Source: Acidobacteriota bacterium (GTDB lineage: Bacteria; Acidobacteriota; Vicinamibacteria; Vicinamibacterales; 2-12-FULL-66-21). From it: a DNA stretch of 64,000 nt. Where the stretch lies: contig QHWR01000040.1 of NCBI GenBank assembly GCA_003223835.1, forward strand, positions 15,134 through 79,133, written 5' to 3'. The translations under genes were made by a program, and so were the position numbers. Positions 30,501-62,160 of the stretch are shown piece after piece; the stretch's first letter is position 1, and each line of letters begins with the position of its first letter. Under the pieces are notes generated by a model. It had not been told where the DNA came from. It did no database searches and was given only the letters and a program-made list of their open reading frames with translations.

Positions 30501-33500
30501 CGCGACGGGCCAGGTGATCCGTCTCGTGCCGTCGGCGCCGCTGCTGCCGAACAATTACTACTACTACCAGGTGAGCACCGCGATCCGCGGAACGAACGGC
30601 CTGACGCCGCAGAACCAGGGTTCCTGGTACTTCTACACCGCGACGACGAGCGATACGATCGCGCCCGGCGTCCTGTCGGTGACGCCGCCTGCCGCCGCGA
30701 TCAACGTCGGCGACAACGCGCGCATTGTCGTGCGCTTCACCGAGCCGGTGAACACGCTCACGGTGAACGCGGCGACGCTGTCGGTAAGGGGCACGACGCC
30801 GATCGCCGGCGCGCTCAGCTTCGCCAACCAGAATCAGGACGTGTATCTGGAGCCGTTCACGCCGCTGCCCGACGGGCAGGTCCTGACGGTGGCGATCGAC
30901 GGCGTGACCGACGTCGCGGGGAATCCCGTCGCGGCGGTGACGTCGCAGTTCGCCGTCGGCGCCGGACCCGACGTGGCGGTGCCGGTGGTGCTCGCCATCA
31001 ATCCGGTGAACGGCCTCACGAACGTGCCGACGAACGTGGCGGTCTCGCTGCTCCTGAACGAGCCCATCGATCCGAGCTCGGTGACGCGCTCGAGCCTCCA
31101 GATCTACGACAACGTCGTCGGCCAGGTGAACGGCGCCTACACGGTGAGCAGCGACGGCCGCACGGTGACGTTCGTGCCGGGCGCGCCGCTCGGCGTGAGC
31201 CGCTCGCACAGCGTGTACTTCGCCAATCAGGGGATGACCGACCTCGCCGGCAATCTGGTGAACGGGTCGGGCTTCTCGAACTTCAGCTTCACGACGGGCG
31301 CGTCCGCGAACACGACGGCGCCGCAGGTGGTCGGGATCAGCCCGGCGGATCAGCTGACCGACGTCTCGCGCAACGTGCAGGTCGTCGTCGATCTCGATCG
31401 CCCGATCGACACGCTGACGGCGTCGCAGATCACGCTTGCGGCGAGCAGCGGAACGATCCCGGTCATCATGACGTTCGCCAACGGCGACCGCCGGATCACG
31501 CTGACGCCGATCGCGCCGCTGGCGGCCGCGACCGCCTACACCGTCACCGTGGGCGCGATTACGGATCTCAGCGGGATTCCGCTCGCCACGCCGGTGGTCA
31601 GTCATTTCACGACCACGACCGGCGTCGATCTGAACGGACCGCAGGTGAGCGTCGTCAGCCCGATCAACGGTGGAACGGGTGTGCCGACGAACGCGCTGAT
31701 TCAGCTCGGGTTCACCGAGCGCATGAATCCGCTGACCGTCAACGCCGGCACGTTCCGGCTCTATCCGCAGGCGACGGGGATTGTGATTGCCGGATCGTAC
31801 TCGGTCGCCGCCGACGGCCGGAGCGCGACGTTCACGCCGTCCGCGCCGCTGGCGCCGTCGACCGCCTACTACATCGACGTCAACGGCGTCGTGGATCTGA
31901 CCGGACAGGCCGCCTCGACGTTCACGAGCTTCACGACCGGGACAGCCGCGCAGGTCGCGCGGCCGACGGTCGTCACCGTCAGTCCGGCTGACGGCACGTC
32001 GGACGTGCCGCTCAACGCCAAGGTGTCCATGCTCGTGAGCGCGGCGATCAGCCCCGTGACGATCGGGAGCATGGCCGTCACGTTGTCGGCCAACGGCAGC
32101 AGCGTCGCCGGATCGATCTCGCTCAGCGCGGATCGCAGACAACTGACGCTGACGCCCGCCGCCGCGCTGGCGCCGAATACCACTTACACGGTGTTCGTCG
32201 GCGGCTTCGCGGACGTCGCCGGCAACCTCGTGCTGCCGTTCGGCAGCACGTTCACGACCGGGACCGCGGCGACCGACACCGGGCCGCTCGTCGTGAGCGC
32301 CTTCACCCCGGCGAACGGCACCCAGAACGTGCCGGTGAACAGCACCGTCGTCGTCCGGTTCAACAAGGCGGTCAGCCCGGTGACCGTCAACACGAACACG
32401 ATCGTGGTGTCGTACGCCGGCGTCAGCCACGTGGCGGGCGCCTACGCGGTCAGCGGCGGCACGGTGACGTTCACGCCGGCGAGCCCGTTCCCAGGCAATA
32501 CCAGCATCTCGGTGCAGGTGACGGGCGTCCAGGATCTGATCGGCAACGCGAACGGGTTCGCGTCCGCCTCCTTCGTGACGGCCGCCGTGGCGGATACGAC
32601 GCCGCCCGAGGTGGCGAGCGTGACGCCCGCCGACGGATCGGGCGACGTCGGCCTCAACGCGCAGGTCGTCGTGACGTTCTCCGAATCGCTGAATCCCGCG
32701 ACGGTGAGCAACAACACGTTCGCGTTGTTCGCCAACGGCATCCGCATCGGCAACATCGCGTCGGTGTCGGCCGACAACCGGACCGTCGTGCTGAGCGGCG
32801 GCACACTGCCGGCCGCGAGTCTCATCAGCCTCGTCATCACGAGCGCCGTTCGTGACCTCGCCGGGAACGCGCTCGCGGACTTCGTGAGCGGGTTCACCAC
32901 CGAGGATGCGCCCGACACGTCACGGCCGAGCATCGTGAGCCAGCGGCCGGCGAACGGCGCGAGCGGCGTGTCCGCCGCGAGCGGCGTCGTCCTGTTCGTC
33001 AGCGAGCCGCTCAACCCCGCAACCGTCGGGGCGGCGATCCACGTCTCGCAGAACGGCGTGCTCGTCGACGGGACGGCGCAGGTGACCGGCAACGGGCAGG
33101 TGATTCAGTTCCAGCCGGCCGTGGCGTGGGCGCCGAACGCGCTGATCCAGGTGTTCCTCGACGGCAACGCACAGGATCTGCAGGGCAACGCGCTCAACTC
33201 GTACCAAAGCTCGTTCCGGATCGCCGTCGATCCGCAGACCGCCGCGCCGGTCGCGACCGCGGTGAGCCCGGCGTACGGCTCGCAGAACGTGCCGCTGAAT
33301 CCGAGCATCGCCGTCGGTTACAACCAACCGCTCGATCCCGCGACGGTCAATACGTCCACGGTCAGCCTGAACGGCCCCGCGGGCAGGGTCAACGCGTCGG
33401 TCGGCCTCGATTCGACGGGAACGGTGATTCGGATCCTGCCCGTTGACGCGAGCAACAACCGGGTCGATCTGGCGCCCAACGCGTTCTACTACTACCAGAC

Positions 33501-34878
33501 GAACGGGATTCGCGGCACGAACGGCGTCGCCGCGCAGAATTCGGGCTACTGGTACTTCTACACGGGCACCGATCGCGACGCGACGGCGCCGTCCGTGCGC
33601 GCCATCACGCCGCCGGCGGGCTCGACGAACGTCGGCGACAACGCTCGCATCGTCGTCCGCTTCTCCGAGCCGCTGAATCCGTTGACGGTGAACAATGGGA
33701 CGATCGCGGTGACGGGCGCCGCGGCTGTGACGGGCTCCTTCAGTTTCGCCAACCAGAACAAGGATGTGTATCTCGAACCGTACGCGCCGTTGCCGGATAG
33801 CCAGACGCTCACGATCACGATCGCGGGCGTGACCGACGTCAGCGGCAACGCGGTGACCACGACGACCGCTCAGTTCGGCGTGGCGGCGGGCCCGGACGTC
33901 GCGGTGCCGGTCGTCCTGGCGGAAAACCCGGTCGGCGGGCTGACGAACGTGCCGACGAACGCCGTCGTCTCGCTGCTGCTGAACGAGCCGATCGATCCGG
34001 GCTCGGTGACCACCTCCACGATGCAGGTGTACGACAACGTTCTCGGCAAGCAGGTCGCCGGGAGCTACGCCGTCAGCAGCGACGGACGGACGATCAGCTT
34101 CGTGGCCGACTCGCCGCTCGCCGCGAACCACAGCCACAGCGTGTACTTCGCCAATCAGGGGATGACGGATCTGGCGGGCAACCTCGTGAACGGCAGCGGC
34201 TTCTCGAACTTCAGCTTCACCACCGGATCGACGGCGGACCTCACCGGACCGCAGGTCACCGCCATCAGCCCGGCGGATCAATTGACGAACGTGCCGCGCA
34301 ACGGGTCCGTCATGATCGGGTTCGATCGGCCGATCAACACGCTGACGGCATCGCAGATCACGCTTGCCACCGCGGCCGGAACGCCCGTGCCGGTCGCGAG
34401 GACGTTCTCGAACGGCGACGCGCGCGTCACGCTGACGCCGCTCGCGCCGCTGTCCGCCTCGACTTCTTACAGGGTCACGGTAGGCGCCGTCGCGGACCTG
34501 ACCGGCACCGCGCTGGCGACGCCGGTGGAGAGCCGCTTCACCACCGGCACCGGGGCCGATCTGACGCCGCCCGTGGTCACGAGCGTGTCGCCGATCAACG
34601 GCGCGCAAAACGTGCCGACGAACGTCGTCGTCCAGGTCACGTTCAACGAGCGGATGAATCCGCTGACGATCGCGCGCTCGACGTTCCAGGTGATCGATCA
34701 GAGCACCGGCATCGCGATCGCGGGCGACGTCGTCGTGTCGTCCGACGGCTTGACGGCGGCGTTCATTCCGGCGGCGGCGCTGACGCCGTCGGCGGGCTAC
34801 TATGTGCAGGGCTCCGGATGGGCGAACCTGGCGGGCCTGCAGACGAGCGTGTTTACGAGTTTCAGAACGGGTCAATGA
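21571..34878 (+). CDS. Giant (4,435 aa) secreted multidomain Ig-repeat protein: Big_2, TSP3-like Ca-binding repeats, LVIVD propeller repeats, then ~31 SbsA/Big_5-like Ig modules
   Basis: Uninterrupted 13,308-nt ORF. The GTG start overlaps the upstream stop (GTGA). Signal peptide MTTTATRFVRLLALVLLAVCPARETFAQ. Domain calls come from motif reading (see findings). The long antisense ORFs across it are Arg-rich shadows. Confidence 0.92.
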   Translation: MTTTATRFVRLLALVLLAVCPARETFAQLNENCTVSVLNRNVRVNPDGTWVLPNVPANFGPVRARATCIIDGRTISGESEPFLVPPNGAVNVPRIVFGELTPIPTTVTVTAPASLLTALGSTLQLTVTAAYANNTTRDVTAEATGTQYTISNSAIATVSGNGLVTAVKAGIVLVQATHEGASGLISIRIAPSNADADGDGIPDDVEVALGLNPQDPTDAAEDFDRDGLTNLQEYLLGTDIRKADTDGDGLTDGDEVARGTNPLLRDTDGDGISDGLEVQTGSNPLDANSYNLAAALTSVTVAPAQFVLTFNTILGDVTLQLKVTGHLKDGSTIDLTSTRRGTNYNSSNLNVCNFGATDGMVFAGEEGSCTITATVATFTASSSGNVHKFSPKPLSFVDLGGPGNNIDVSGDYAYVAVGAAGLKVVNVSDRKTPQIVATLSLPGTANDVKLAGTRAYVAAGAAGLHIVDVSNPIAPRLIGTFDTAGSANDVRSNGNLAFVADGSAGLAIIDVSTPDTPRLIGALSGIGTANGVDVVGGLALIANGSMLRVVDVSNPANPRSIGTVNLPGDAQDVVARGTTAYVADYTGSLQVVDFTTPTAPVVVGTTTQALGGILYDVAVSGNFVFGADIFFVNGVPIVDVTNPHSPIPRAILDFRQFRDDNGSGIAADGSYVYLTTLEGRLYIGQYRLLEDLYGVAPTVSISAPAPGATFVEGETIPVSVVATDDVSVTAVTLEVDGAAAATDTTAPYQFTVTAPHGATGVTLGASAVDLGNNVGVAADIQVAVTPDPLTTAAGRVVDRNGTPVGGATVSCLAHTGVTTPDGAFAIPGLPTIQPTVLCTADYVDAQGITQHGASARVPPVRGGMTQVGDIRLLAVPVIASITPKAIDSFRPPTTLHVTGVNLTGATFAFVSDTTPIVTAGTPQIDAGGTSATLPINVTFGAQGTLVLTATNSVGTSETFATAGNSLVVLSLTPAGDADNDGLTNEYELAIGTDPTSPDTDHDGIPDGWEVRFGLNPLDAADANQDADGDGATNLEEFAAGTSPVNPHTVPPAVAEVFPANGATNYPTNGVVIVRFDEPLLTAVAIDVAKQALGAALPASQSQVDLTAAAQALQAYLRTHGEGDTVVPGTVRVRRNGIDVAGAVTLSNDKLSITFTPSQALLASSLYTVTVAGVRDAAGNPMTQAFESVFTTGQSGDTSAPRVLLTNPSSGMSGVPVNAPVTVQFTKRLDPATLTAQSFAAYDNFTGQQVAGMIQMEPSGLVASFVPQTTWAPGRSFSVYLNTDIKDSAGNRLQSYSFSFSTAFFADAQGPHIVGTSPADGDTNVPLNVPIVVQFDEAVNTIRGAAGVQVFAQGQPIPGSIALSDGNRRITFTPASALAPNTAYTIVPSAQLTDIAGNLVAAFTNATFTTGAAADNTTPSVTAVSPANGAGGVPTNTVVQLSFNEPINRLTVNAATFVVYPQATGIPVAATYAVSADGRNATLIPASPLVSLTGYYVSMSGISDAVGHATSTFTSFTTGAAADTAPPTVVAISPAGGATNVPLNARVVVRLSEPINPSSATTAAVKLTAGGNAAAATVALSADRLTITLTPGAPLAASTLYTVKVSGLTNLAGLEVVAATSTFTTGTAASGPQLAVTSFTPANNSVNVPVDSPILVTFNAPIDPTSVNVNSVFVFVSGAGAVSGTFAVQGNSVTYTPVSSFPGNTTVSVQVSGVLDVAGHGNNFASMSFRTVAAPDTTAPAVISVTPGDGAMGIGLNAQVVVTFSESVNPSTVNNNTIALFANGGRFGNIAGISADNRTVVLNGGMLPASSVVTVALTSAIQDLSGNRLADFTTAFTTAPPFDTARPSVVSQRPGNGASGVAAGTRIVLFLSEPLDATTVPSALHVSQNGALVDGVVQVSGNGQVIQFFPAEPWAGNALVQVFLDTTARDLQGNSVSAYQASFRTAADPQTTRPVVTAVSPVYGAGNAPLNTVVTIGYSLPLDPATVTATTVTMTGPAGAVNIAVTLDATGQVIRLVPAGPLVANSYYFYQTTAAIRGINGLAPQNPGSWYFYTGGPLDATAPAVRSITPPPAAVSVGDNARIIVRFTEQVNPLTVNGTTLSVAANASVPTSVTFSNQNMDVYLEPYAPLPDGQSVTVAIAGVTDIAGNPVTATSAQFTVGAGPDVKPPTTLAENPVNGLTNVPINAVVSLLFNEPIDPSSVTPGAFQVYDNVVGQVSGSYTVSGDGRLVTFVQAKPFGIDRSHSVYFANQGITDLAGNLANGSGFSNFSFTTGVSANVTGPQVIGISPADQLTDVSRNAQVVIDFDRPINTLTAPQIALSAAGSPVATFTSFSSGDRRVTLTPVNPLAAATVHAITIGAITDLSGAPLATPVVTQFTTAPGVDLVGPQVTSVSPANGATSVPTNTVVQLTFSERMNPLTVNGSTFQVYPQATGLPVAGVYVVASDGRSATFTPSAALSASTGYYISVSGIADLTGQGANTFTSFATAAGPQIARPTVAGISPPDGATNVPLNGRVVVRMSEPVSPLSLNAEALTLSAAGSLVPAAVALSGDRLTLTLTPNAPLTASTTHTVAIAHLTNVVGAEVLPVTSAFTTGTTTAGSNSLTVSSIAPANGAQNVPVDSTVRVTFSTAVDPTSVNVNTVTIYLSGVTNLAGSYVVQGATVTFTPLNPLPGNTTISVQVSGVVDFAGHGNNYTNISFKTAAVPDTTAPTVVSITPSEGATGVGPNAQVVIAFSESLNAATVRNNTVALFVNGARFGNVVSVSADARTVVLGGGTWPASSLVTVALTSAVQDVSGNPLADFTSTFTTAPAFDTARPSVVSQRPANGSSGVAASTDVVFFLSEPLDPATVPDAVHISENGVLVDGTVQVSGNGQVIQFAPAEPWAGGALIQVFLESSARDRNGNSVFAYQASFRTASDPQTTRPAPTAVSPVYGASNVPLNTAITIGYNVPLDPATVTTSTVTMSGPAGAVSAAVSLDATGQVIRLVPSAPLLPNNYYYYQVSTAIRGTNGLTPQNQGSWYFYTATTSDTIAPGVLSVTPPAAAINVGDNARIVVRFTEPVNTLTVNAATLSVRGTTPIAGALSFANQNQDVYLEPFTPLPDGQVLTVAIDGVTDVAGNPVAAVTSQFAVGAGPDVAVPVVLAINPVNGLTNVPTNVAVSLLLNEPIDPSSVTRSSLQIYDNVVGQVNGAYTVSSDGRTVTFVPGAPLGVSRSHSVYFANQGMTDLAGNLVNGSGFSNFSFTTGASANTTAPQVVGISPADQLTDVSRNVQVVVDLDRPIDTLTASQITLAASSGTIPVIMTFANGDRRITLTPIAPLAAATAYTVTVGAITDLSGIPLATPVVSHFTTTTGVDLNGPQVSVVSPINGGTGVPTNALIQLGFTERMNPLTVNAGTFRLYPQATGIVIAGSYSVAADGRSATFTPSAPLAPSTAYYIDVNGVVDLTGQAASTFTSFTTGTAAQVARPTVVTVSPADGTSDVPLNAKVSMLVSAAISPVTIGSMAVTLSANGSSVAGSISLSADRRQLTLTPAAALAPNTTYTVFVGGFADVAGNLVLPFGSTFTTGTAATDTGPLVVSAFTPANGTQNVPVNSTVVVRFNKAVSPVTVNTNTIVVSYAGVSHVAGAYAVSGGTVTFTPASPFPGNTSISVQVTGVQDLIGNANGFASASFVTAAVADTTPPEVASVTPADGSGDVGLNAQVVVTFSESLNPATVSNNTFALFANGIRIGNIASVSADNRTVVLSGGTLPAASLISLVITSAVRDLAGNALADFVSGFTTEDAPDTSRPSIVSQRPANGASGVSAASGVVLFVSEPLNPATVGAAIHVSQNGVLVDGTAQVTGNGQVIQFQPAVAWAPNALIQVFLDGNAQDLQGNALNSYQSSFRIAVDPQTAAPVATAVSPAYGSQNVPLNPSIAVGYNQPLDPATVNTSTVSLNGPAGRVNASVGLDSTGTVIRILPVDASNNRVDLAPNAFYYYQTNGIRGTNGVAAQNSGYWYFYTGTDRDATAPSVRAITPPAGSTNVGDNARIVVRFSEPLNPLTVNNGTIAVTGAAAVTGSFSFANQNKDVYLEPYAPLPDSQTLTITIAGVTDVSGNAVTTTTAQFGVAAGPDVAVPVVLAENPVGGLTNVPTNAVVSLLLNEPIDPGSVTTSTMQVYDNVLGKQVAGSYAVSSDGRTISFVADSPLAANHSHSVYFANQGMTDLAGNLVNGSGFSNFSFTTGSTADLTGPQVTAISPADQLTNVPRNGSVMIGFDRPINTLTASQITLATAAGTPVPVARTFSNGDARVTLTPLAPLSASTSYRVTVGAVADLTGTALATPVESRFTTGTGADLTPPVVTSVSPINGAQNVPTNVVVQVTFNERMNPLTIARSTFQVIDQSTGIAIAGDVVVSSDGLTAAFIPAAALTPSAGYYVQGSGWANLAGLQTSVFTSFRTGQ
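25819..34878 (+). repeat. Intragenic tandem super-repeat: a ~2.9-kb (nine Ig modules) unit, about 3.1 copies
   Basis: Unit starts:
- 25819: TPSVTAVSPANGAGGVPTNTVVQLSFNEPINRLTVNAATFVVYPQATG
- 28726: GPQVTSVSPANGATSVPTNTVVQLTFSERMNPLTVNGSTFQVYPQATG
- 31636: GPQVSVVSPINGGTGVPTNALIQLGFTERMNPLTVNAGTFRLYPQATG
- 34564: TPPVVTSVSPINGAQNVPTNVVVQVTFNERMNPLTIARSTFQV
Spacings are 2907, 2910 and 2928 nt. The copies have diverged (roughly three-quarters aa identity by eye). Confidence 0.85.
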
Positions 34879-41343: not shown

Positions 41344-41346
41344 TCA

Positions 41347-41449
41347 GTCCCTCGTCCCTAGTCCCTCGTCCCGAGTCCCTCGTCCCCAGTCCCTCGTCCC
41401 CAGTCCGGCGTCCTTGGGACCCGAGACGAGGGACTAGGGACTAGGGACT
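41347..41449. repeat. Heptad-armed hairpin: (GTCCCNN) x~10 facing (GGGACNN/TAGGGAC) x~4
   Basis: gtccctc gtcccta gtccctc gtcccga gtccctc gtcccca gtccctc gtcccca gtccggc gtccttg | gggaccc gagac gagggac tagggac tagggac. Fills the whole 90-bp spacer between the convergent TonB receptor and selA. The last four selA codons (AVPSP*) lie in the right arm. Confidence 0.9.
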
Positions 41450-42850: not shown

Positions 42851-42939
42851 GAATGACGAATGCCGAATGTCGAATGCCGAACGTGAACCGAGTGCCGATT
42901 CAGATCTCTTTCGGCATTCGGCATTCAGCATTCGGCATT
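42851..42939. repeat. Heptad-armed hairpin: (GAATGNC) x4 facing (GNCATTC) x4
   Basis: Left arm gaatgac gaatgcc gaatgtc gaatgcc (42851..42878). Right arm ggcattc ggcattc agcattc ggcattg (42912..42939). Lies in the divergent spacer between selA and the 42953 gene. Confidence 0.9.
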
Positions 42940-43396: not shown

Positions 43397-43467
43397 CAGC
43401 TTCCAGCTGCCAGCTTCCAGCTTCCAGCTCGGAACCATGGAACCGTTGGCCGGGAGCTGGTAGCTGA
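43397..43467. repeat. Heptad-armed hairpin: (CAGCTNC) x5 facing GAGCTGG TAGCTGA
   Basis: Left arm cagcttc cagctgc cagcttc cagcttc cagctcg (43397..43431). Loop ggaaccatggaaccgttggccgg. Right arm gagctgg tagctga (43454..43467). Occupies the whole spacer from the stop at 43396 to ATG 43473. Confidence 0.9.
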
Positions 43468-44523: not shown

Positions 44524-46048
44524 GAAAATCCAGCAATATGCGCGCGATTTTGAGCGTCTCGGACAAGGCGGGGCTCGTCCCGTTCGCGCGTGCCCTCGCC
44601 GCCGCCGGCGTCGCCTTGATCTCGACCGGCGGCACCGCGAAGGCGCTGGCGGACGCCGGCTTGCCGGTGACGAACGTGTCGGACGTCACCGGTTTCCCCG
44701 AGATGATGGACGGCCGCGTCAAGACGCTGCATCCGAAGATCCACGGCGGCATCCTGGCGCGCCGCCATCGGCCCGACGATCTCGCCGCGATCGCGGCTCA
44801 AGGCATCGAGCCGGTGGATCTCGTGGTCGTGAACCTGTATCCGTTCGAGCGGTGCTGCGCGCCGCGGCGAAAAATTTCCGCGACGTCCTCGTCGTCGTGT
44901 ATCCCGCGGACTATCCGCGCGTGCTCGAAGAGCTGGCGCGGCCGGACGGGCCGTCGCTGGCATTCAGGTTCGAGCTGATGAAAAAGGCGTTCGCGCACAC
45001 GGCGCAGTTCGACAAGTTGATTCTCGATACGCTGAACACGATTCGGTGCTCGAACGGCGATTTCTCGCGGGGCGCTCCGCTCGAGAACCGCAGGCAGCTG
45101 CGGTACGGCGAGAACCCGCATCAGCAGGCGATCTGGCTGTGTACGACGGACGCCGCGGCCGAGTGGAAGATCCATCAGGGCAAGGAGCTGTCGTACACGA
45201 ATCTGCTCGACGTCGACGCCGCCGCCCGCATCGCGCTCGAGTTCACGGAGCCGGCGGCGGTTGTCATCAAACACACGAATCCATGCGGGACTGCGACGGG
45301 GTCGTCGATCGCCGACGCGTATGTGCGCGCGCGCGAGGCCGACCCGCTGTCCGCCTTCGGCGGGATCGTCGGGCTGAACCGGCCGGTTGACGAGGAAACG
45401 GCGCGGGCTATTGCGTCGACGTTCATCGAGGCGGTCATCGCCCCCGGAATCGACGAGGCCGCGCGCGGGATTCTCGCGGCCAAGACCAACATGCGCGTCC
45501 TGACGGCGAGCTTCGATCGCCTGCGCGACGACGAGCGATCGGCCAAGGACGGGCGATCGATTCTGGGCGGCTTCCTCGAGCAGGACAGGGATCAGGTCGT
45601 CGAGGCCCGCCTGCCCTGGCCACCGCCGCCGGGTGACGCAACCGCCGCAACGGCGGCGATTCGGGTGGTGACGAAGCGCCAGCCGACGCCGGAGGAGTGG
45701 ACCGCGTTGCGGTTTGCGTGGCGCGTGTGCGCGCACGTCAAATCCAACGCGGTGATCTTCACCGCGGCCGATCGAACGCTGGCGGTGGGCGCCGGTCAGA
45801 TGAGCCGTGTGGACGCGGTCAAGGTCGCGGTGACGAAGGCCGCGGGCCAGAACGTCTCGTTGAAAGGATCAGTCGCGGCGTCGGATGCGTTCTTCCCGTT
45901 CCGCGACGGCCTCGACGCGATCGCGGACGCCGGCGCGACCGCGGTCGTGCAGCCCGGCGGATCCGTGCGCGATCAGGAGGTGATTGCCGCGGCCGACGAG
46001 CGAGGGCTCGCCATGGTGTTCACAGGGCGCCGTCACTTCAGACACTGA
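44517..46048 (+). pseudogene. purH: Bifunctional AICAR transformylase / IMP cyclohydrolase, frame broken near 44851
   Basis: - N-terminal part: [37 protein letters not shown]…[18 protein letters not shown]…VVVNLYPFE (track 44517..).
- C-terminal part, in another frame: (V)[15 protein letters not shown]… to the end (track 44852..46048).
- Missing: the ~22 aa that normally separate NLYPF from LRAAAKN. Confidence 0.88.
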
Positions 46049-47697
46049 TGACGCGACGAGCGACGCTGACGGTCATCCTCGCGCTCGCCTCGATCCTCTT
46101 CTTCGTGGATCTCGGCGGCACCTCGATATGGGACGCGAACGAAGCGTTCTACGTCGAAACGCCGCGCGAGATGCTCGAGGCGCACGACCTCATCAACCCC
46201 ACGTTCGACTACGAGCCGCGCTTCAACAAGCCGGTGCTCAGCTACTGGGTGGTTGCGGCTTTCTACAAGCTGTTCGGCGTCTCCGTCGCCGTGCAGCGAA
46301 TCCCTATCGCCATCGGAGCGTTGATCATCGTCGCCTGCGCGTTCTTCCTCGCGCGTGCCGCCGCCGACGGGGGACTTGGGACGCGGGACGAGGGACGAGG
46401 GACGAGGGACGCGGCGTTGTGGGCCGCCGCCGGCCTCGCCGTTTCCCCCCGGCTGGTGATGTTCGCGCGCCGCATCTTCATCGACATCTGGATCACGGCG
46501 TTCATGTCGCTGACGCTGCTCTTCTTCGCGTTGAGCGAACGTCATCCGGAGAGGCGGCGGTTGTTCCTGATCCTGATGTACGTTGCCGCGGGGCTCGGGA
46601 CGCTGACGAAGGGCCCCGTCGCGATCGTGCTGCCCGCCCTCGCATTCCTCCTGTATCTGATCGTCCATGGGGAACTGCGTCGCCTTCGGTCGATGATGCT
46701 GCCGCTCGGCGTCGTCATCGTCTGCGCCGTCGTGGTGCCGTGGTATCTGGCGGTGTACCACCAGCACGGCTGGCCCTACATCAAGGCATTCTTCATCGGC
46801 GAGAACATCGGGCGCTACACGTCCGGCGTCGGCCTGCAGCAGGAGCGCGGTCTTCTGTTCTATCCGCCGATTATCCTCACCGACTCGTTGCCGCTGTCGT
46901 TTTTTCTGGTCGCCGCGGCGGCGTGGTGGTGGCGCGAGAGCCGGATCCAGACGCTCCTCTGGATCTGGATTGCCGTCATCGTGCTGTTCTTCTCGTTCTC
47001 GGCGAACAAGCAGGATCTGTACATCTACCCGATCGTGCCCGCGGTCGCCGCGCTCGCCGGTGCGTTCCTCTCGCGCGTTGAGGCGGATTCCTCGGGACCG
47101 TTCGCGTGGTGGGCGGCCGTCACGGCCGGCGTCGCCGGGATCTTCCTGGCGGCGGCCGGCGCCGGCGTGCTGTACGTGTTCGAGACGGCGGGCCGGGTGT
47201 ACGCGCTCAACGGCGCGATCGCCATCGGCGTCGTCGGCGTGTGCGGGGGTCTAATCGCGTTTGCGCTCGCCGTCGCGCGGAAGCCGCTGGCGTCGACGTT
47301 CACCCTGCTCATCCTGATGGTCGCGCTCGACTGGACGTTCGTGCTGCGCGTCTTGCCGGACTTCGAGCGCAACAAACCGGTCCCCGGGATCAGCGAGACG
47401 CTTCGCGCGCGCCTGCGTCCGGACGACGTCGTCGCCGTGTTTCACGAGGCGGTGCCGAGCCTCGTCTACTATCTGCGGCGGCACGTGGACATGTACATCG
47501 ACCCGCGCGCGTTCGTCGAGGCGATGTCGCAGCCACGGCGCGTCTACGGCGTGCTGACGCTCAGCGATTACGACGAGCTGCGCCCGCAGATCTCGAGGCC
47601 GACGTGCATCATCGATCGGCGGCCGACCTTCGCCGGAGCTGTTGCTCATTACGAACGATTGTGGCCGACGATAGGTTCGGGGTTCCTGAAACAGTGA
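46048..47697 (+). CDS. Glycosyltransferase family 39 (ArnT/PMT-like, undecaprenyl- or dolichyl-phosphate sugar dependent)
   Basis: ATG 46048 (TGATG overlap with the purH stop). MTRRATLTVILALASILFFVDLGGTSIWDANEAFYVETPREMLE…FNKPVLSYWVVAAFYKLFG…LGTLTKGPVAIVLPAL… is typical of GT39/PMT_2. Polytopic membrane protein. Confidence 0.8.
   Translation: MTRRATLTVILALASILFFVDLGGTSIWDANEAFYVETPREMLEAHDLINPTFDYEPRFNKPVLSYWVVAAFYKLFGVSVAVQRIPIAIGALIIVACAFFLARAAADGGLGTRDEGRGTRDAALWAAAGLAVSPRLVMFARRIFIDIWITAFMSLTLLFFALSERHPERRRLFLILMYVAAGLGTLTKGPVAIVLPALAFLLYLIVHGELRRLRSMMLPLGVVIVCAVVVPWYLAVYHQHGWPYIKAFFIGENIGRYTSGVGLQQERGLLFYPPIILTDSLPLSFFLVAAAAWWWRESRIQTLLWIWIAVIVLFFSFSANKQDLYIYPIVPAVAALAGAFLSRVEADSSGPFAWWAAVTAGVAGIFLAAAGAGVLYVFETAGRVYALNGAIAIGVVGVCGGLIAFALAVARKPLASTFTLLILMVALDWTFVLRVLPDFERNKPVPGISETLRARLRPDDVVAVFHEAVPSLVYYLRRHVDMYIDPRAFVEAMSQPRRVYGVLTLSDYDELRPQISRPTCIIDRRPTFAGAVAHYERLWPTIGSGFLKQ
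46371..46412 (+). repeat. In-frame (GGGACNN) x6 heptad array inside the GT39 coding sequence
   Basis: gggactt gggacgc gggacga gggacga gggacga gggacgc, 42 nt or 14 codons (GLGTRDEGRGTRDA), inserted in a loop after a TM helix. The core is the same as the right arm of the 41347 element. Confidence 0.85.
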
Positions 47698-52086: not shown

Positions 52087-53817
52087 ATGTCTGTCGCGCT
52101 GTTGTTCGTCGTTTCGCTGAGTTTTCCCGCCTCCGCCCCGAATCAGGCCGACCAGCCGACCGCGGCGTACTACTTCCTGCTGGGCAGAACGCTCGAAGGC
52201 AAAGGCAAGATCGACGACGCGATCGCCGCGCACCGCCAGGCGATCCAGCTCGATCCGAAGTCCGCCGAGCTGCACGCCGAACTGGCAGGCCTCTTCGCGC
52301 GGCAGGAGCGCGCGCCGGAGGCGTTCGACGAGGCGCGCGCGGCGCTCGACCTCGATCCGCAGAACGTCGAGGCGAATCGCATTCTGGGCACCGTGCTCGC
52401 GGCGTACGCGGACCAGCGGCGCGTGTTGAAGCCGGGCGACGATACGTCGACGTACATGCGGCGCGCGATCGGCGCGCTCGAAATCGCGCGGCGCGACGGC
52501 TCCGTCGATCTCAACACCGACCTCGCGCTCGCGCGTCTGTATCTGCAGGACCATGCCCCCGGGAAGGCCGCGCCGCTCCTCCGCCACATCCTCGACGATC
52601 AACCCGGCTTCGGCGAAGGCTATCTGCTGCTCGCGCAGGCGCAGGAGGAATCCGGTCATCCCGACGACGCGATCAATACGCTGAAAGCCGTCGTCGGCGA
52701 GGAGCCGACGTTCTATCGCGCCGTCGTCCGCCTCGCGGAGCTGTACGACGCGCACCGTCAATGGACGGAGGCGGCCGAGACGTGGTCGCAGGCGCAGAAG
52801 ATCAATCCGCGCAATCCCGACCTCGTGAGCCGCCGCATCACGGCGCTCATCAACAGCGGCAAGGCGGGGGACGCGCGCGCGGAATTGCAGATCGCGCTCA
52901 AGGCGCGGCCCGACGACCCGTCGCTCTTGTATCTCCTCGCGCAGGCGGAGCGCCAGGCGGGGGACTGGGACGCCGCCGAGGCGACGGCGCGTCAGCTCCA
53001 GAAGGCGGAGCCGAACGGCATCCGCGGACTTTACGTGCTGGCGCAGATTCTCGAGACGCGCAACCGTCACCAGGAGGCCGTCGCCCTGCTCCAGCCGGAG
53101 ATCGCGAAGCGCCGCGGCAACGCGGACGCGGGCTCCGGCGTCGCGCTGCTCCTCGGCACCGAGGGGCTCGCGCTGCAGGGACTGAAGAAGCATGACGAGG
53201 CCATCGCCGCGTTCAAGGAGGCGGCGGAGCTTGCGCCGGACGATCCGCTGCGGCAGGTCCTGCTGATCCAGAGCTACACCGAAGCGCGCCGGTTCAAGGA
53301 CGCGATCGCGGCGGCGGCCGCGGCGCAGAAGAGATTTCCTGACGACACGAGCGTCCTGTATCAACTCGGCGCCGCGTACGATCGCGGCGGGCAGCAGGTC
53401 GAAGCCGAGAAAACGTTCCGCGATCTGCTGCGGCACGACCCGCTCGACGCCAACGCGCTGAACTATCTCGGCTACATGTTCGCGGAGCGCGGCCGTGACC
53501 TCGACGAGGCCGTCGCGCTCATTCAGCGCGCGCTGAAAATCGATCCCGCCAACCCGTCCTATCTCGACAGCCTGGGCTGGGCGTACGTGCAGCAGGGGCA
53601 CCTCGATCTCGCCGATCAGCCCCTGACGGCGGCGGCGGATCGGCTGCCGAAGAACTCGGTCGTCCAGGATCATCTGGGCGACCTGCGTCAGAAGCAGCAT
53701 CGGCCCGCCGACGCGATCGCGGCGTGGCAGCGCGCGCTCGCCGGCGACGGCGAGGAGATCGACCGTGGCAAGATCGAGAAGAAGATAAAAGAGGCACAGG
53801 CGCTGCTGAGGAAATGA
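52087..53817 (+). CDS. Tetratricopeptide-repeat (TPR) protein, secreted
   Basis: Start MSVALLFVVSLSFPASAP (ATG 52087). Many TPR units (…AIAAHRQAIQLDPKSAELHAELAGLF…, …ALNYLGYMFAERGRDLDEAVALIQRALKIDPANPSYLDSLGWAY…). Occupies the position of the TPR gene that precedes lolB-ispE in many Gram-negatives. Confidence 0.85.
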   Translation: MSVALLFVVSLSFPASAPNQADQPTAAYYFLLGRTLEGKGKIDDAIAAHRQAIQLDPKSAELHAELAGLFARQERAPEAFDEARAALDLDPQNVEANRILGTVLAAYADQRRVLKPGDDTSTYMRRAIGALEIARRDGSVDLNTDLALARLYLQDHAPGKAAPLLRHILDDQPGFGEGYLLLAQAQEESGHPDDAINTLKAVVGEEPTFYRAVVRLAELYDAHRQWTEAAETWSQAQKINPRNPDLVSRRITALINSGKAGDARAELQIALKARPDDPSLLYLLAQAERQAGDWDAAEATARQLQKAEPNGIRGLYVLAQILETRNRHQEAVALLQPEIAKRRGNADAGSGVALLLGTEGLALQGLKKHDEAIAAFKEAAELAPDDPLRQVLLIQSYTEARRFKDAIAAAAAAQKRFPDDTSVLYQLGAAYDRGGQQVEAEKTFRDLLRHDPLDANALNYLGYMFAERGRDLDEAVALIQRALKIDPANPSYLDSLGWAYVQQGHLDLADQPLTAAADRLPKNSVVQDHLGDLRQKQHRPADAIAAWQRALAGDGEEIDRGKIEKKIKEAQALLRK

Positions 53818-54638
53818 AGGCAGGAGGCACAAGGCAGAAGGCAACCGCATCGGGATGGCTTGCGGCGTTCTGCCTTTTCCCTTTTGCCTTCTGCCTTTTT
53901 GCGTGCACGCCGAAGCCGCCTGCCCTTCCCGCTGGTGCCGCGTCGCCGTTTCCGGAATATCAACAGGCGTGGACCGAGGCGACGCGCGAGTGCGCCGGAG
54001 TCCAGACGTTGACGGCGTCGCTCGCGATGTCGGGGAAGGTCGCGAAGACAACGCTGCGCGGACGAATCGACGCCGGGTTCGCCGCGCCATCGAGCCTCAG
54101 GCTCGAAGCGGTCGCGCCGTTCGGCCGGCCGGTGTTCGTGCTGGTCGCCACCGGCGACGCCGGCACGCTGCTGCTCGAGCGCGACAACCGCGTGCTGCGC
54201 GGCGCGCGTCCGGCGGACATCGTCGAAGCGCTGGCGGGGGTGCCGCTCGGCGCCGCCGACCTCCGGGCGGTCGTGACCGGCTGCGGGCTGTGGGCCGCCG
54301 CGTCGCCGCACGAGGGGCGCCGGTACGCCGACGGATGGGCGGCGGTCGATCTCGATGACGGCACGGCATTCCTGCGGCAGGCGAACGCCCGCTGGCGGAT
54401 CGCCGCCGCTTCGTCGCCCCACATGACGGTGCGATACGATCTCGATCGCGACGGGCGTCCGTCCACGATTCGCATTTTCACCGATGCGTCCACGACCGCG
54501 GCCGACCTCACGCTGCGCGTCTCACAGGTCGACATCAACGTCACCCTCACTCCGCGAACGTTCACCATCGACGTCCCGCGTGACGCAGCGCCGATCACAC
54601 TCGACGAACTCAGGCGCGCCGGCCCGCTGGGACGCTGA
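53814..54638 (+). CDS. Outer-membrane lipoprotein, LolB-like by position (DUF4292/LolB-type)
   Basis: ATG 53814 (ATGA overlap with the TPR stop). N-terminus MKAGGTRQKATASGWLAAFCLFPFAFCLFAC has a lipobox-like LFAC. Followed directly by ispE. The family call rests mainly on synteny. Confidence 0.6.
   Translation: MKAGGTRQKATASGWLAAFCLFPFAFCLFACTPKPPALPAGAASPFPEYQQAWTEATRECAGVQTLTASLAMSGKVAKTTLRGRIDAGFAAPSSLRLEAVAPFGRPVFVLVATGDAGTLLLERDNRVLRGARPADIVEALAGVPLGAADLRAVVTGCGLWAAASPHEGRRYADGWAAVDLDDGTAFLRQANARWRIAAASSPHMTVRYDLDRDGRPSTIRIFTDASTTAADLTLRVSQVDINVTLTPRTFTIDVPRDAAPITLDELRRAGPLGR
53816..53898. repeat. Heptad-armed hairpin (NNAGGCA x4 / TGCCTNN x4) overlapping the lipoprotein signal peptide
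   Basis: Left arm aaggca ggaggca caaggca gaaggca (53816..53843). Right arm tgccttt tcccttt tgccttc tgccttt (53871..53898). The right arm encodes FCLFPFAFCLF. Confidence 0.88.
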
Positions 54639-58880: not shown

Positions 58881-58964
58881 GACACGAAGACACGAAGGTA
58901 CGAAGGATACGAAGAAAACACATTTGGCTTCGTGTGCTTCGTTGGCTTCGTGATCTTCGTGATG
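58881..58964. repeat. Repeat-armed hairpin: (NNACGAAG) x4 facing (CTTCGTNN) x4
   Basis: gacacgaa gacacgaa ggtacgaa ggatacgaa gaaaacacatttg gcttcgtgt gcttcgttg gcttcgtgat cttcgtgat. Lies between rpsR and rplI. Confidence 0.9.
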
Positions 58965-60967: not shown

Positions 60968-62160
60968 TCCGGCCGACCGTCGCGCGCGTCGACCTTCAGG
61001 CCATCGAGTCGAATCTGCGCGCGATCGCCGCATTTCTTCTCGGTCCCCGGTCTCCGGTCGCCCCGCCTCCGCCGCCTGGCGGCGACGGCGAGGCCTCGCC
61101 AGAGCCCGCGCCGCATTCAACGCGGGCGGCGGCGGGTCCTCGAATCATCGGTGTCGTCAAGGCGAACGCCTACGGCCACGGCGCTCGGGAAGTCGGCCTC
61201 GCGCTCGAGCGCGCGGGGGCGGCCGTGCTCGCGTGCGCGGATATCGAGGAGGGGATCGCGCTGCGCGACGCCGGCGTCCGCGCCCCGATTCTGGTGTTCG
61301 GCGCGCTCGGCATCAGCGACCTCGACGGCCTCTTCACGCACACGCTGACGCCGACGATTTCCACGCCGTCCGCGGCGGCCGCGTTGCAGCAGGCCGCGGC
61401 ACGCCACGCCACGGTGCTCCGCTGTCATCTCAAGATCGACACGGGCATGAACCGCCTCGGCTTCCGGCACGACAACCTCGCGCGGACGATTCCCGAAGTC
61501 GCGTCCAGCCGCAACCTCGCGATCGACGCCGTCTACACGCACTTCGCGACCGCCGACGATCCCGACGGCGACATGTTCGCGGTCCAGCGCGAGCGCTTCG
61601 AGCGCGCGTGCGCGGAGGTCAGCGCGCTCGGGATTCGACCGGCGTCGCGTCACGCCGCGAACAGCGCCGCCCTCCTGCGCGACGAGCGGGTCTGGTACGA
61701 CTTCGTCCGCCCCGGACTGCTCCTCTACGGCATCGTCCCGCCGCCGCTCGCCTCGACGCTGCGGCTGCGACCCGCCCTGTCACTCCACAGCCGTATCGTC
61801 CATGTGAAAGGGATGCGGCCCGGCGAGGGCACGGGCTACGGGCTCAAGACCGTCGTCGATCGTCCGGCGACGATCGCCGTCGTGCCCGCGGGGTACGCCG
61901 ACGGCCTCGATCGCCGGCTCGCGGGCGCCGGCGCGATGCTGGTTCGCGGCCGCCGCGCCCCCATCGTCGGATCGGTGTGCATGGACATGACGACGATCGA
62001 CGTCACCGGGATGGATGTGTACCCGGGCGACGAGGTGGTGATTGTCGGCGAGCAGGACGGCGCGTCGATCGGCATGCGCGAGATGTCCGCCGCGATCGGC
62101 ACGATCCCGTACGAGCTGCTTTGCCGCGTCGGCACGAGGATTGAAAGGCTCTACGATTGA
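60964..62160 (+). CDS. alr: Alanine racemase (with a ~35-aa Pro/Gly/Ala-rich insertion near the N-terminus)
   Basis: GTG 60964 (GTGA overlap with dnaB). Contains …[14 protein letters not shown]… (PLP lysine), …[13 protein letters not shown]… and …GYADGL…[11 protein letters not shown]…. The insertion is [35 protein letters not shown] at about 61036..61140. Confidence 0.92.

What the first reader, a model, noticed from the sequence alone, without database searches (positions are those of the whole stretch)
46371..46412. Heptad array inserted in frame inside an essential-looking membrane glycosyltransferase
- Six GGGACNN heptads (42 nt, which is 6x7 and also 14 codons) sit in the GT39 gene and translate to GLGTRDEGRGTRDA. 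This is a charged stretch right after a TM helix (…IIVACAFFLARAAADG|GLGTRDEGRGTRDA|ALWAAAGLAV…).
- The core is the one used by the intergenic hairpin at 41347..41449, 5 kb away, but here there is only one arm.
- Only multiples of three heptads keep the frame. Slippage by one or two heptads would switch the gene off, so this is a potential phase-variation switch for an LPS/glycan-modifying enzyme.
- Alternatively it is just a tolerated loop insertion.
Basis: partly seen in the sequence, partly recalled or inferred. Interest (0 to 1): 0.6.

Follow-up and report, generated by a model that had tools for sequence, protein, structure and literature searches.

The report
In-frame heptad microsatellite in enzyme loop
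A 42-base run of six 7-base repeats sits in frame inside a dispensable cytoplasmic loop of an ArnT-like membrane sugar-transferase of a soil acidobacterium; relatives carry similar repeat runs at the same spot, and they change length in frame-keeping steps, so it looks like a tolerated variable loop, not an on/off switch.

Summary
Window 46371-46412 holds six GGGACNN heptads, in frame, in a GT39/PMT_2 gene (46048-47697, +). They encode GLGTRDEGRGTRDA.

The main interpretation, a phase-variation switch, is not supported.

- **Location.** The insert lies in the disordered cytoplasmic TM2-TM3 loop of an ArnT-like GT-C enzyme, on the opposite side from the periplasmic active site.
- **Lineage context.** Heptads are the dominant tandem repeat in this Vicinamibacterales lineage: 206 period-7 arrays in 1.21 Mb, mostly intergenic hairpins.
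- **Hotspot.** This loop is a recurrent site for arrays. 38 of the 246 arrays found in the 166 sequences scanned lie in it (34 sequences), with more than 15 different heptad motifs.
- **Near-identical strains.** Loop lengths differ by 21, 42 and 63 nt, an allele series of about 3, 6, 9 and 12 heptads.
- **Frame.** 159 of 160 surveyed orthologue loci are in frame.
- **Periodicity.** Long coding arrays are 21-nt periodic. No loop array has more than 3.9 perfect units.
- **Frameshifts.** The three interpretable frameshifted alleles carry 1-nt indels inside a unit. None shows a change in heptad number.
- **Motif sharing.** The loop array shares its motif and unit order with an intergenic hairpin 5 kb upstream, which suggests copying between arrays.

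Verdict: an ordinary but neat coding VNTR, moderately interesting.

The parts
46371..46412 (+). Heptad array: GGGACTT GGGACGC GGGACGA x3 GGGACGC. It encodes GLGTRDEGRGTRDA. Its longest perfect tract is 3.9 units.
46048..47697 (+). ArnT-like GT-C glycosyltransferase gene (GT39/PMT_2), 100% identical to PYR79130.1 (DMF86_04480). The residues that align to ArnT D55, K85, D158, K203 and R270 (D28, K60, D145, K187, R255) are invariant in 32 orthologues.
46285..46368 (+). Codons for the helix before the insert (model residues 79-106). By the ArnT alignment this is TM2, running from the periplasm to the cytoplasm.
46369..46395 (+). Codons for the unstructured part of the cytoplasmic TM2-TM3 loop (model residues 107-115; pLDDT below 50 at residues 109-113).
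46396..46473 (+). Codons for TM3 (model residues 116-141, kinked at S132-P133). The helix begins inside the last heptads and leads to the invariant periplasmic D145.
41345..41449 (.). Intergenic two-armed heptad hairpin of the same GGGACNN family, lying between convergent genes. Copy number differs between strains: about 9+5 units here and about 15+9 in L085. It shares 20-nt unit strings with the 12-unit gene allele L166.
47630..47633 (+). Junction of a 38-nt deletion relative to the 99.9%-identical contig L084. It shifts the frame and replaces the conserved C-terminal tail of the enzyme.

Best explanation
The stretch is a coding heptanucleotide microsatellite (VNTR) in a permissive loop. It is not a switch.

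**Shown**
- The gene encodes an ArnT-like GT-C glycosyltransferase.
- By alignment to ArnT, the insert lies in the short cytoplasmic loop between TM2 and TM3. That loop is disordered in the model and lies on the opposite side from the periplasmic catalytic residues.
- In this Vicinamibacterales lineage, 7-nt tandem repeats are by far the commonest tandem repeat. Most sit between genes, often as two-armed hairpins.
- The same loop carries heptad arrays of many different motifs in about a quarter of orthologues.
- Alleles of near-identical strains differ by multiples of 21 nt.

**Inferred**
- Arrays arise and change length by slipped-strand mispairing, and probably by copying (gene conversion) from other arrays of the same genome such as the hairpin 5 kb upstream.
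- Because 7 and 3 share no factor, three heptads read through all three frames of the unit and give one 7-residue peptide unit. For G-rich units this peptide is hydrophilic (G, T/S, R, D, E).
- Purifying selection on the enzyme removes every length that breaks the frame and every unit that creates a stop codon. Only 21-nt steps and stop-free units survive.
- The result is a variable-length, probably functionless, cytoplasmic linker.
For: **Topology**
- The profile match to ArnT 5ezm has E 2.7e-41. The AlphaFold model (pLDDT 81.6, pTM 0.85) matches 5ezm at TM-score 0.73.
- D145 aligns to ArnT D158, which lies in the second periplasmic loop just before TM4. JM1 and JM2 lie in the first periplasmic loop, and the TM2-TM3 and TM8-TM9 loops are cytoplasmic (PMC7801869).
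- Strongly positive segments after TM4 and TM6 agree with this topology.
- The insert has pLDDT below 50 at residues 109-113.

**Lineage-wide heptads**
- Tandem Repeats Finder on 1.21 Mb found 206 arrays of period 7, against 2 of period 6 and 34 of period 8.
- After merging there are 246 arrays: 38 in this loop, about 5 in a second GT39 loop, about 160 intergenic, and very few in other genes.

**Hotspot**
- The loop is 27-219 nt long in 160 orthologue loci. Baseline loops are 27-60 nt with no periodicity.
- Arrays carry motifs such as GGGACGA, GGGATTC, GGGATGC, CCGAGGA, GGAAGCC, CCTCCGT and CCAACTC.
- They cluster in one clade of the gene tree.

**Frame constraint**
- 159 of 160 loci are in frame.
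- Allele series at 96% or more protein identity: ADAGLGTRDAAWW (5 contigs); ADGGLGTRDEGRGTRDAALW (window and L084); a 12-unit allele (L166/L167). A longer in-frame array occurs at 79-81% identity (L171), and none in L172.
- The best autocorrelation lag is 21 nt in 8 of 15 long loop arrays against 8 of 56 other arrays (Fisher p = 0.003).
- Other repeat units in the loop are 15 and 33 nt, also multiples of 3.

**Low slippage potential**
- No loop array has more than 3.9 perfect units, while intergenic arrays reach 8.7.
- L092, L099 and L147, and separately L081-L083, L085 and L086, keep the same length across different metagenomes. The first trio differs by point substitutions.

**Copying between arrays**
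- A loop array shares its motif with a nearby intergenic hairpin in the window (5 kb away) and in L048 (1.5 kb away). That is 3 sharing pairs against 0.29 expected.
- The L166 gene array shares exact 20-nt unit strings (GGGACCCGAGACGAGGGACT and GACGAGGGACTCGGGACGAG) with the hairpin arms.
Against: - No reads were available, so length heterogeneity within a population was not measured.
- Three frameshifted alleles lie inside arrays (L077, L166/L167, L168). Arrays may therefore be mutational weak points that occasionally inactivate the gene.
- The search for related loci keeps only the best-scoring 80 loci. Frameshifted loci, which give split matches, may be under-sampled, above all in the metagenome set.
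- 'Functionless linker' is an inference. A quarter of orthologues keeping an array at one loop could also reflect selection for a long flexible loop.
- The argument for copying from the hairpin rests on two lineages and short shared strings.
Confidence: 0.7

Rival explanations
1. Phase-variation (contingency) switch. Slipped-strand gain or loss of one or two heptads shifts the frame and turns the LPS-related glycosyltransferase off, reversibly.
For: - The unit length is not a multiple of 3, and the array sits in the first fifth of the ORF.
- The gene lies in an LPS-core neighbourhood with a PfkB kinase, a Wzy_C ligase and a GT9 heptosyltransferase.
- Copy number differs among close strains.
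- Frameshifted alleles exist within arrays, in L077, L166/L167 and L168.
- A precedent exists: neuO, with its AAGACTC heptad VNTR (PMC3046976).
Against: - No allele has a heptad number that breaks the frame. Length differences are 21, 42 and 63 nt.
- 159 of 160 loci are in frame, whereas known contingency genes are often 'off' in assemblies (my own knowledge).
- All three interpretable frameshifts are 1-nt indels inside a unit: a 6-nt GGACGC, a 6-nt CGGATC, and two 8-nt units in L077. One of them is in a nanopore assembly.
- Units are degenerate, with at most 3.9 perfect units here, far fewer than in working switches.
- Length is stable across independent metagenomes.
Confidence: 0.1
2. Functional rheostat. 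The number of 7-residue units tunes activity, stability or a cytoplasmic interaction of the enzyme, as the RLKTQDS heptads tune NeuO. Loop length would then be under diversifying selection.
For: - Arrays persist at this one loop across a large clade, with motif turnover.
- A second hotspot lies in another cytoplasmic loop of the same enzyme.
- NeuO activity rises linearly with heptad number (PMC3046976).
Against: - Most orthologues, including a whole sister clade, have a 9-20-residue loop with no repeats. Some close relatives have none (L172).
- The encoded peptides differ widely (GTRDEGR, GSGIRDE, PSVLRPP, PTPNPQL, EAGSRKP), which argues against a specific interaction.
- The loop is on the opposite side from the active site.
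Confidence: 0.1
3. Nucleic-acid structure element. The six GGG tracts, spaced by 4 nt on the sense strand, form a G-quadruplex in DNA or mRNA that modulates transcription or translation of the gene.
For: - The sequence fits G3N4 x 6.
- G-quadruplex-aware folding of the isolated 48-mer prefers a quadruplex, -16.6 against -11.0 kcal/mol.
- GGGNATC heptamer repeats of Xanthomonas and Nostoc form G4 in vitro (PMC4692102).
Against: - In the 122-nt context, ordinary pairing wins and no quadruplex is predicted.
- Many arrays in the same loop have no G3 tracts or are C-rich on the sense strand, for example CCTCCGT, CCAACTC, CGATCCT and GTTGTTC.
Confidence: 0.05
4. Assembly artefact: the repeat run was created or mis-sized by the assembler.
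For: - Repeats are prone to mis-assembly.
- The same window carries a 38-nt deletion that an independent contig lacks.
Against: - An independent ENA assembly (L084) has the identical 6-heptad allele in 2783 nt of 99.93% identity.
- Other alleles recur in several assemblies.
- The array is far shorter than a read.
Confidence: 0.02

Closest known systems
neuO poly-psi motif (E. coli K1 prophage CUS-3 polysialate O-acetyltransferase)
   Same: - Both are tandem heptanucleotide units inside a coding region.
- Three units encode one hydrophilic, disordered 7-residue peptide unit.
- Copy number varies between strains.
- The host gene modifies a surface glycan (PMC3046976).
   Different: - neuO has 2-93 perfect AAGACTC units right after the start codon. 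Isolates carry all copy numbers, so the gene switches on and off, and activity scales with heptad number.
- Here there are 6 degenerate units at codon 107, in an internal cytoplasmic loop of a polytopic membrane enzyme.
- Only frame-keeping lengths are seen, and no switching is in evidence.
G-rich heptameric simple sequence repeats of GC-rich bacteria (GGGNATC type of Xanthomonas and Nostoc; cyanobacterial STRR heptamers)
   Same: - Both are 7-nt units with a G3 tract, in many copies per genome.
- They are mostly intergenic, near gene ends, and sometimes occur as tandem inverted pairs.
- Copy number is variable (PMC4692102; here).
- Relatives of the window gene carry GGGATTC and GGGATCA units.
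- A search with heptad-encoded peptides hits ORFs called across such arrays in Xanthomonas translucens.
   Different: - The window's units are GGGACNN, not GGGNATC.
- The lineage uses dozens of unrelated heptads, many without G tracts.
- The published class is described as under-represented in ORFs, whereas this array is in frame in a conserved enzyme at a recurrent hotspot.
ArnT, lipid A 4-amino-4-deoxy-L-arabinose transferase (PDB 5EZM/5F15)
   Same: - The GT-C fold matches (TM-score 0.73).
- The residues equivalent to D55, K85, D158, K203 and R270 are invariant.
- The soluble domain after the last membrane helix (model residues 443-548) corresponds by position to ArnT's periplasmic domain.
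   Different: - Identity is only 23%.
- The score against the NCBIfam ArnT equivalog is 114 bits, with a cut-off of 567.
- No arn operon is nearby, and the acceptor is unknown.
- ArnT's TM2-TM3 loop is about 4 residues and carries no repeat.
In-frame VNTRs in bacterial proteins (general class)
   Same: Length polymorphism of a repetitive, disordered peptide segment, maintained in frame.
   Different: The unit is 7 nt rather than a multiple of 3, so the frame constraint produces a 21-nt higher-order period. The array also belongs to the genome's intergenic repeat family.

Membership tests
SSR-mediated phase-variable (contingency) locus | A tract of tandem units, of a length not divisible by 3, within the ORF or promoter | tested here: met
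   Six 7-nt units lie in frame at codons 108-121. Only 3.9 units are perfect.
SSR-mediated phase-variable (contingency) locus | Close strains or populations carry unit numbers in all residue classes, including frame-breaking ones | tested here: not met
   Alleles differ by 21, 42 and 63 nt. 159 of 160 loci are in frame. Frameshifted alleles are 1-nt indels, not changes in unit number.
SSR-mediated phase-variable (contingency) locus | High-frequency, reversible switching of expression | not testable with these tools
   This needs reads or cultures. Indirect evidence: array length is unchanged across independent metagenomes while substitutions accumulate.
neuO-type poly-psi heptad VNTR | A heptanucleotide unit in which three units encode a 7-residue repeat | tested here: met
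   GGGACGA x3 encodes GTRDEGR. Relatives encode GSGIRDE, GLGTRDS and others.
neuO-type poly-psi heptad VNTR | Array placed directly after the start codon, forming an N-terminal extension | tested here: not met
   The array is at residues 108-121 of about 549, in an internal loop between two membrane helices.
neuO-type poly-psi heptad VNTR | Catalytic efficiency scales with heptad number | not testable with these tools
   This needs an enzymology experiment.
G-rich heptameric SSR class (GGGNATC; Rehm et al. 2015) | A 7-nt unit with a G3 tract, many copies per genome, mainly intergenic | tested here: met
   There are 206 period-7 arrays in 1.21 Mb, about two thirds of them intergenic. The window's units are GGGACNN.
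G-rich heptameric SSR class (GGGNATC; Rehm et al. 2015) | Consensus GGGNATC | tested here: not met
   The window has GGGACGA, GGGACGC and GGGACTT. Some orthologues have GGGATTC or GGGATCA.
G-rich heptameric SSR class (GGGNATC; Rehm et al. 2015) | Forms a G-quadruplex | tested here: inconclusive
   A quadruplex is predicted for the isolated 48-mer but not in the 122-nt context.
ArnT (lipid A L-Ara4N transferase) | GT-C fold with the ArnT arrangement of helices and a periplasmic C-terminal domain | tested here: met
   Foldseek against 5ezm gives E 4.4e-16 and TM-score 0.73. The profile match has E 2.7e-41.
ArnT (lipid A L-Ara4N transferase) | Conserved functional residues D55, E84/K85, D158, K203, R270 | tested here: met
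   The aligned residues D28, K60, D145, K187 and R255 are invariant in 32 orthologues. E84 is replaced by N59.
ArnT (lipid A L-Ara4N transferase) | Reaches the curated equivalog score | tested here: not met
   NF009784 scores 114.4 bits against a cut-off of 567.
ArnT (lipid A L-Ara4N transferase) | Encoded with the other arn genes (arnBCADEF) | tested here: not met
   The neighbours are purH, a 287-residue protein with no family match, a PfkB kinase, a Wzy_C ligase and a GT9 transferase.

The most novel reading that the evidence does not exclude
In Vicinamibacterales the heptad arrays behave as a self-propagating repeat family. Arms of intergenic heptad hairpins are copied, by gene conversion or template switching, into nearby DNA, including the two cytoplasmic loops of this conserved enzyme. 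There they persist as fast-evolving peptide linkers, and loop length may be tuned by selection. This would be a route by which non-coding microsatellites repeatedly create new protein sequence in a membrane enzyme.
Probability: 0.15. Interest if true: 0.55.

Novelty: new member of a known kind. Interest (0 to 1): 0.33.

Why it matters
- **Annotation.** In this abundant but poorly studied soil lineage, 7-nt repeats are the dominant microsatellite. They can sit in frame in conserved genes, so gene callers and readers should not take them for switches or errors by default.
- **A natural experiment.** Because 7 and 3 share no factor, selection for the reading frame leaves a visible 21-nt higher-order period and a 3/6/9/12 allele series. 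This is a clean illustration of selection filtering microsatellite mutations.
- **A tolerant insertion site.** The data mark the TM2-TM3 and TM8-TM9 cytoplasmic loops of ArnT-like GT-C enzymes as positions that tolerate insertions of up to about 70 residues (loop up to 73 residues). That is useful for protein engineering and tagging.
- **What it does not provide.** It gives no new regulatory mechanism.

Tried and rejected
**Hidden second arm.** I looked for a second arm around the gene array. There is none. The only complementary partners are the arms of the hairpin 5 kb away, and the local fold is no better than shuffles.

**Off alleles among unbiased loci.** Only L077 is out of frame, and it comes from a nanopore assembly with two 8-nt units.

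**Off alleles among truncated N-terminal fragments.**
- Most short hits are contig-end fragments.
- Others come from long-read contigs in which neighbouring genes are also broken (L169, L170), so they are uninformative.
- Many belong to a clade without arrays.
- L166/L167 and L168 are clean single frameshifts, but each is a 1-nt deletion in a G run.

**Proteome-wide spread of heptad-encoded peptides.** The hits are dominated by short ORFs called over intergenic arrays, for example in Xanthomonas translucens. This did not show whether other real proteins carry such loops.

**G-quadruplex idea.** A quadruplex is predicted only out of context.

**ArnT structure paper.** It is not held in the library. 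The topology was taken from PMC7801869 instead.

**Counting coding arrays by ORF and GC3.** Most of the 'other coding' calls were ORFs that extend upstream of the true start, or GC-rich low-complexity repeats of period 14 or 21. That count is therefore an upper bound.
Full report
**1. The observation**

Window 46371-46412 reads GGGACTT GGGACGC GGGACGA GGGACGA GGGACGA GGGACGC. Tandem Repeats Finder reports 46366-46411, period 7, 6.6 copies, 87% matches.

A three-unit pattern, GGGACNNGGGACNNGGGAC with up to 1 mismatch, matches 14 times in the window. All matches are in two places, this array and the intergenic element 41347-41448, against 0.03 expected by chance.

The array is in frame in the ORF ending at 47697 and encodes GLGTRDEGRGTRDA between ...IIVACAFFLARAAADG and ALWAAAGLAV.... 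The protein is PMT_2/GT39. It is 100% identical to PYR79130.1, DMF86_04480, from an Acidobacteria soil MAG.

The gene segment has no second arm: its fold z-score is -0.45, against -6.5 for the intergenic hairpin. 'Essential-looking' is unsupported.

**2. The gene and the position of the insert**

A profile of 32 orthologues matches ArnT of Cupriavidus metallidurans (5ezm) with E 2.7e-41. An AlphaFold model (pLDDT 81.6, pTM 0.85) superposes on 5ezm with TM-score 0.73.

D28, K60, D145, K187 and R255 align to ArnT D55, K85, D158, K203 and R270. All five are invariant in the 32 orthologues.

The protein is not ArnT proper. It scores 114 bits against the NCBIfam equivalog, whose cut-off is 567. Its neighbours are purH, a 287-residue protein with no family match, a PfkB kinase, a Wzy_C ligase and a GT9 heptosyltransferase. 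That is an LPS-core setting, not an arn operon.

For topology I used PMC7801869:
- D158 lies in the second periplasmic loop, just before TM4.
- The TM2-TM3 and TM8-TM9 loops are cytoplasmic.

Since D145 equals D158, the helix before it (model residues 116-141) is TM3 and residues 79-106 are TM2. The insert (residues 107-121, pLDDT below 50 at 109-113) is therefore the cytoplasmic TM2-TM3 loop, on the opposite side from the active site. The strongly positive segments SERHPERRR and HGELRRLRS fall on the cytoplasmic side under this assignment, as the positive-inside rule expects. ArnT itself has only about 4 residues at this position.

**3. Relatives**

I fetched 80 species-level orthologue loci from GTDB genomes, all Vicinamibacterales or Acidobacteriota MAGs, and 80 metagenome contigs. 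I then delimited the loop with tblastn anchors on both sides.

- The loop is 27-219 nt long.
- Baseline loops are 27-60 nt and show no periodicity.
- Thirty-four of the 166 sequences scanned carry a heptad array in this loop.
- The heptads differ between lineages: GGGACGA (window), GGGATGC, GGGATTC/GGGATCA, GGGACTC, CCGAGGA, CGAGGGT, GGAAGCC, GGACCAC, CGATCCT, CCTCCGT, CCAACTC, GTTGTTC/GGGAACC.
- One orthologue (L088) has a complete two-armed heptad hairpin inside the coding loop.
- On a tree of the rest of the protein, the arrays concentrate in one large clade, interspersed with array-free members. One array (L048) lies outside that clade.
- A sub-clade without loop-1 arrays carries heptad arrays in a second place, the cytoplasmic TM8-TM9 loop (L053, L064, L143, L026; peptides STPHPAP and APSTEHR).

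**4. The wider repeat family**

In 1.21 Mb (the window plus 165 loci), Tandem Repeats Finder finds 206 arrays of period 7, against 2 of period 6 and 34 of period 8. After merging there are 246 heptad-family arrays: 38 in the GT39 loop, about 160 intergenic, and very few in other genes.

In the window itself, every other heptad array is intergenic: 41345-41449, 42851-42939, 43397-43429, 53816-53899, 58881-58960 and 62154-62651.

This matches a published class: heptameric, often G-rich simple sequence repeats that are abundant in some GC-rich bacteria, mostly intergenic, sometimes in tandem inverted pairs (PMC4692102). A search with heptad-encoded peptides mainly hit short ORFs called over such arrays in Xanthomonas and others.

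**5. Tests of the switch idea**

*(a) Strain-level alleles.* At 96% or more protein identity:
- the window and an independent contig (L084) have the 6-unit allele;
- five contigs from other assemblies have GGGGCTT GGGACGC GCGACGC (ADAGLGTRDAAWW), 21 nt shorter;
- L166/L167 have a 12-unit allele.

At 79-81% identity, L171 has a longer in-frame array, 42 nt more than the short allele. L172 (about 78%) has none. All differences are multiples of 21 nt, apart from the 1-nt deletion described under (e).

*(b) Frame.* 159 of 160 loci are in frame across the loop. The exception, L077, is a nanopore MAG whose array contains two 8-nt units.

*(c) Periodicity.* Among arrays of 49 nt or more, the best autocorrelation lag is 21 nt in 8 of 15 loop arrays but in only 8 of 56 other arrays (Fisher p = 0.003). 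Other repeat units seen in the loop are 15 nt (7+8) and 33 nt, also multiples of three.

*(d) Mutability.* No loop array has more than 3.9 perfect units, and the window's array is the maximum. Intergenic arrays reach 8.7. L092, L099 and L147, from three metagenomes, have equal length but differ by substitutions.

*(e) A deliberate hunt for off alleles.* I searched with the N-terminal 107 residues.
- It returned many truncated fragments. Most are contig ends, or come from long-read contigs in which neighbouring genes are also fragmented (L169, L170).
- Two are clean single frameshifts within arrays. L166/L167 is the same allele in two samples, with a first unit GGACGC that lacks a G. L168 has one unit CGGATC that lacks a G, within a 21-nt-periodic array.
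- Both are 1-nt deletions in G runs. Restoring the G restores the frame. Neither is a change in heptad number.

The signature expected of a heptad-slippage switch, copy numbers in all residue classes, is therefore absent.

Caveats:
- No reads were available.
- The locus finder keeps only the 80 best-scoring loci, which may under-sample split genes.

**6. Origin of the array**

The window's loop array uses the same GGGACNN family as the hairpin 5 kb upstream. No other locus outside this lineage uses that family.

In L048 the loop array (CCAACTC/CCAACCC) matches a hairpin 1.5 kb downstream of the gene. Same-locus motif sharing was seen 3 times, in two independent loci, against 0.29 expected.

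The 12-unit allele L166 shares exact 20-nt strings with the hairpin arms of the window and of L085: GGGACCCGAGACGAGGGACT and GACGAGGGACTCGGGACGAG. The first includes the unusual unit GAGACGA. The hairpin itself varies in copy number between strains.

This suggests that arrays of one genome exchange sequence and that the coding array was seeded or refreshed from the intergenic family. It is an inference from two lineages.

**7. Mechanism proposed**

*Shown:*
- a heptad microsatellite in a disordered cytoplasmic loop of a conserved enzyme;
- a lineage-wide heptad repeat family;
- recurrent occupation of the same loop;
- length changes only in frame-keeping steps.

*Inferred:*
- Arrays grow and shrink by slippage or conversion.
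- Because 7 and 3 share no factor, an array is read in all three frames of its unit. It therefore encodes a 7-residue repeat whatever the entry frame, and any unit that contains a stop codon in tandem (such as GGGACTA, present in the hairpin) is excluded from coding arrays.
- Selection on the enzyme removes frame-breaking lengths.
- The loop tolerates up to about 70 extra residues because it has no catalytic role.

Rivals, each given low weight, are a true contingency switch, a NeuO-like activity rheostat, a G-quadruplex regulatory element and an assembly artefact (see the rival list).

**8. Comparison with known systems, and novelty**

It works like an in-frame VNTR. The closest specific precedent is the neuO poly-psi heptad VNTR (PMC3046976). 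It differs in position, in the perfection of the units, and in lacking out-of-frame alleles.

As DNA it belongs with the heptameric simple sequence repeats described for Xanthomonas and Nostoc (PMC4692102), with different unit sequences.

I rate it a new member of a known kind. It is of moderate interest because of the clean 3/6/9/12 series, the two-loop hotspot in one enzyme family, and the hint of copying from intergenic hairpins.

**9. A side observation that bears on 'essential-looking'**

The window's copy of the gene has a 38-nt deletion at about 47632 relative to the otherwise 99.93%-identical L084. The deletion shifts the frame and replaces the family-wide conserved tail ...TFDVRLKNVLSRDPPPELLLITNDC. 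Either the assembly is wrong there or this allele is damaged.

Noticed in passing
window 47610-47660 (junction about 47632): A 38-nt deletion (ACGTCAGGCTGAAGAACGTATTGAGCCGCGATCCGCCG, flanked by CG) relative to the 99.93%-identical contig L084. It frameshifts the last ~20 residues (about 22) of the GT39 protein and removes a C-terminal tail conserved in all homologues. It is either an assembly error or a damaged allele.
   Followed up: partly
window about 44850 (inside purH): Identity to L084 drops abruptly from 99.9% to about 78% upstream of this point. This suggests a recombination breakpoint or a chimeric contig in one of the two assemblies.
   Followed up: no
window 62154-62651: A giant two-armed repeat of about 500 nt, built of 7-8-nt units (GATTGCC/GATTGAC... 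facing CAATCGT...), just upstream of the gene that starts near 62608. It is by far the largest heptad hairpin in the window.
   Followed up: no
window 42851-42939, 43397-43429, 53816-53899, 58881-58960: Further intergenic heptad elements with unrelated units (GAATGCC hairpin, CAGCTTC single array, GAAGGCA hairpin, and an 8-9-nt hairpin). The GAATGCC hairpin is nearly identical in related strains, unlike the GGGACNN hairpin.
   Followed up: partly
window 41345-41449 compared with L085 575-755: The GGGACNN intergenic hairpin differs in copy number between strains with about 96% protein identity: roughly 9+5 units in the window and 15+9 in L085.
   Followed up: partly
L053 3841-3946; L064 1331-1401; L143 2238-2301; L026 1312-1331: A second heptad-array hotspot in the same enzyme family, in the cytoplasmic TM8-TM9 loop (peptides STPHPAP and APSTEHR), confined to a sub-clade that lacks arrays in the first loop.
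   Followed up: partly
L088 6261-6336: A complete two-armed heptad hairpin (CGAGGGT x4 facing CCTCGGT x4) lies in frame inside the coding loop and encodes GRGSRVEDRRSSVLDPRSS.
   Followed up: no
L166/L167 212-664 and 664-1083; L168 3001-3453 and 3453-4694: Clean split alleles of the GT39 gene, each caused by one missing G in one heptad. In L166 the premature stop overlaps an ATG (TGATG) at the MFARRIF motif, so a C-terminal fragment lacking most of TM3 (from M137) could be translated.
   Followed up: partly
proteins P0138-P0245: Many short 'hypothetical proteins' annotated in Xanthomonas translucens and other genomes consist of heptad-encoded peptide repeats. They are probably ORFs called across intergenic heptad arrays, which would be an annotation artefact.
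   Followed up: no
window 20803-34878: A single open reading frame of about 4691 codons with high third-position GC, containing a 66-nt tandem repeat at 22299-22424 rich in Asp/Gly/Thr codons. It may be a giant repeat-containing surface protein.
   Followed up: no
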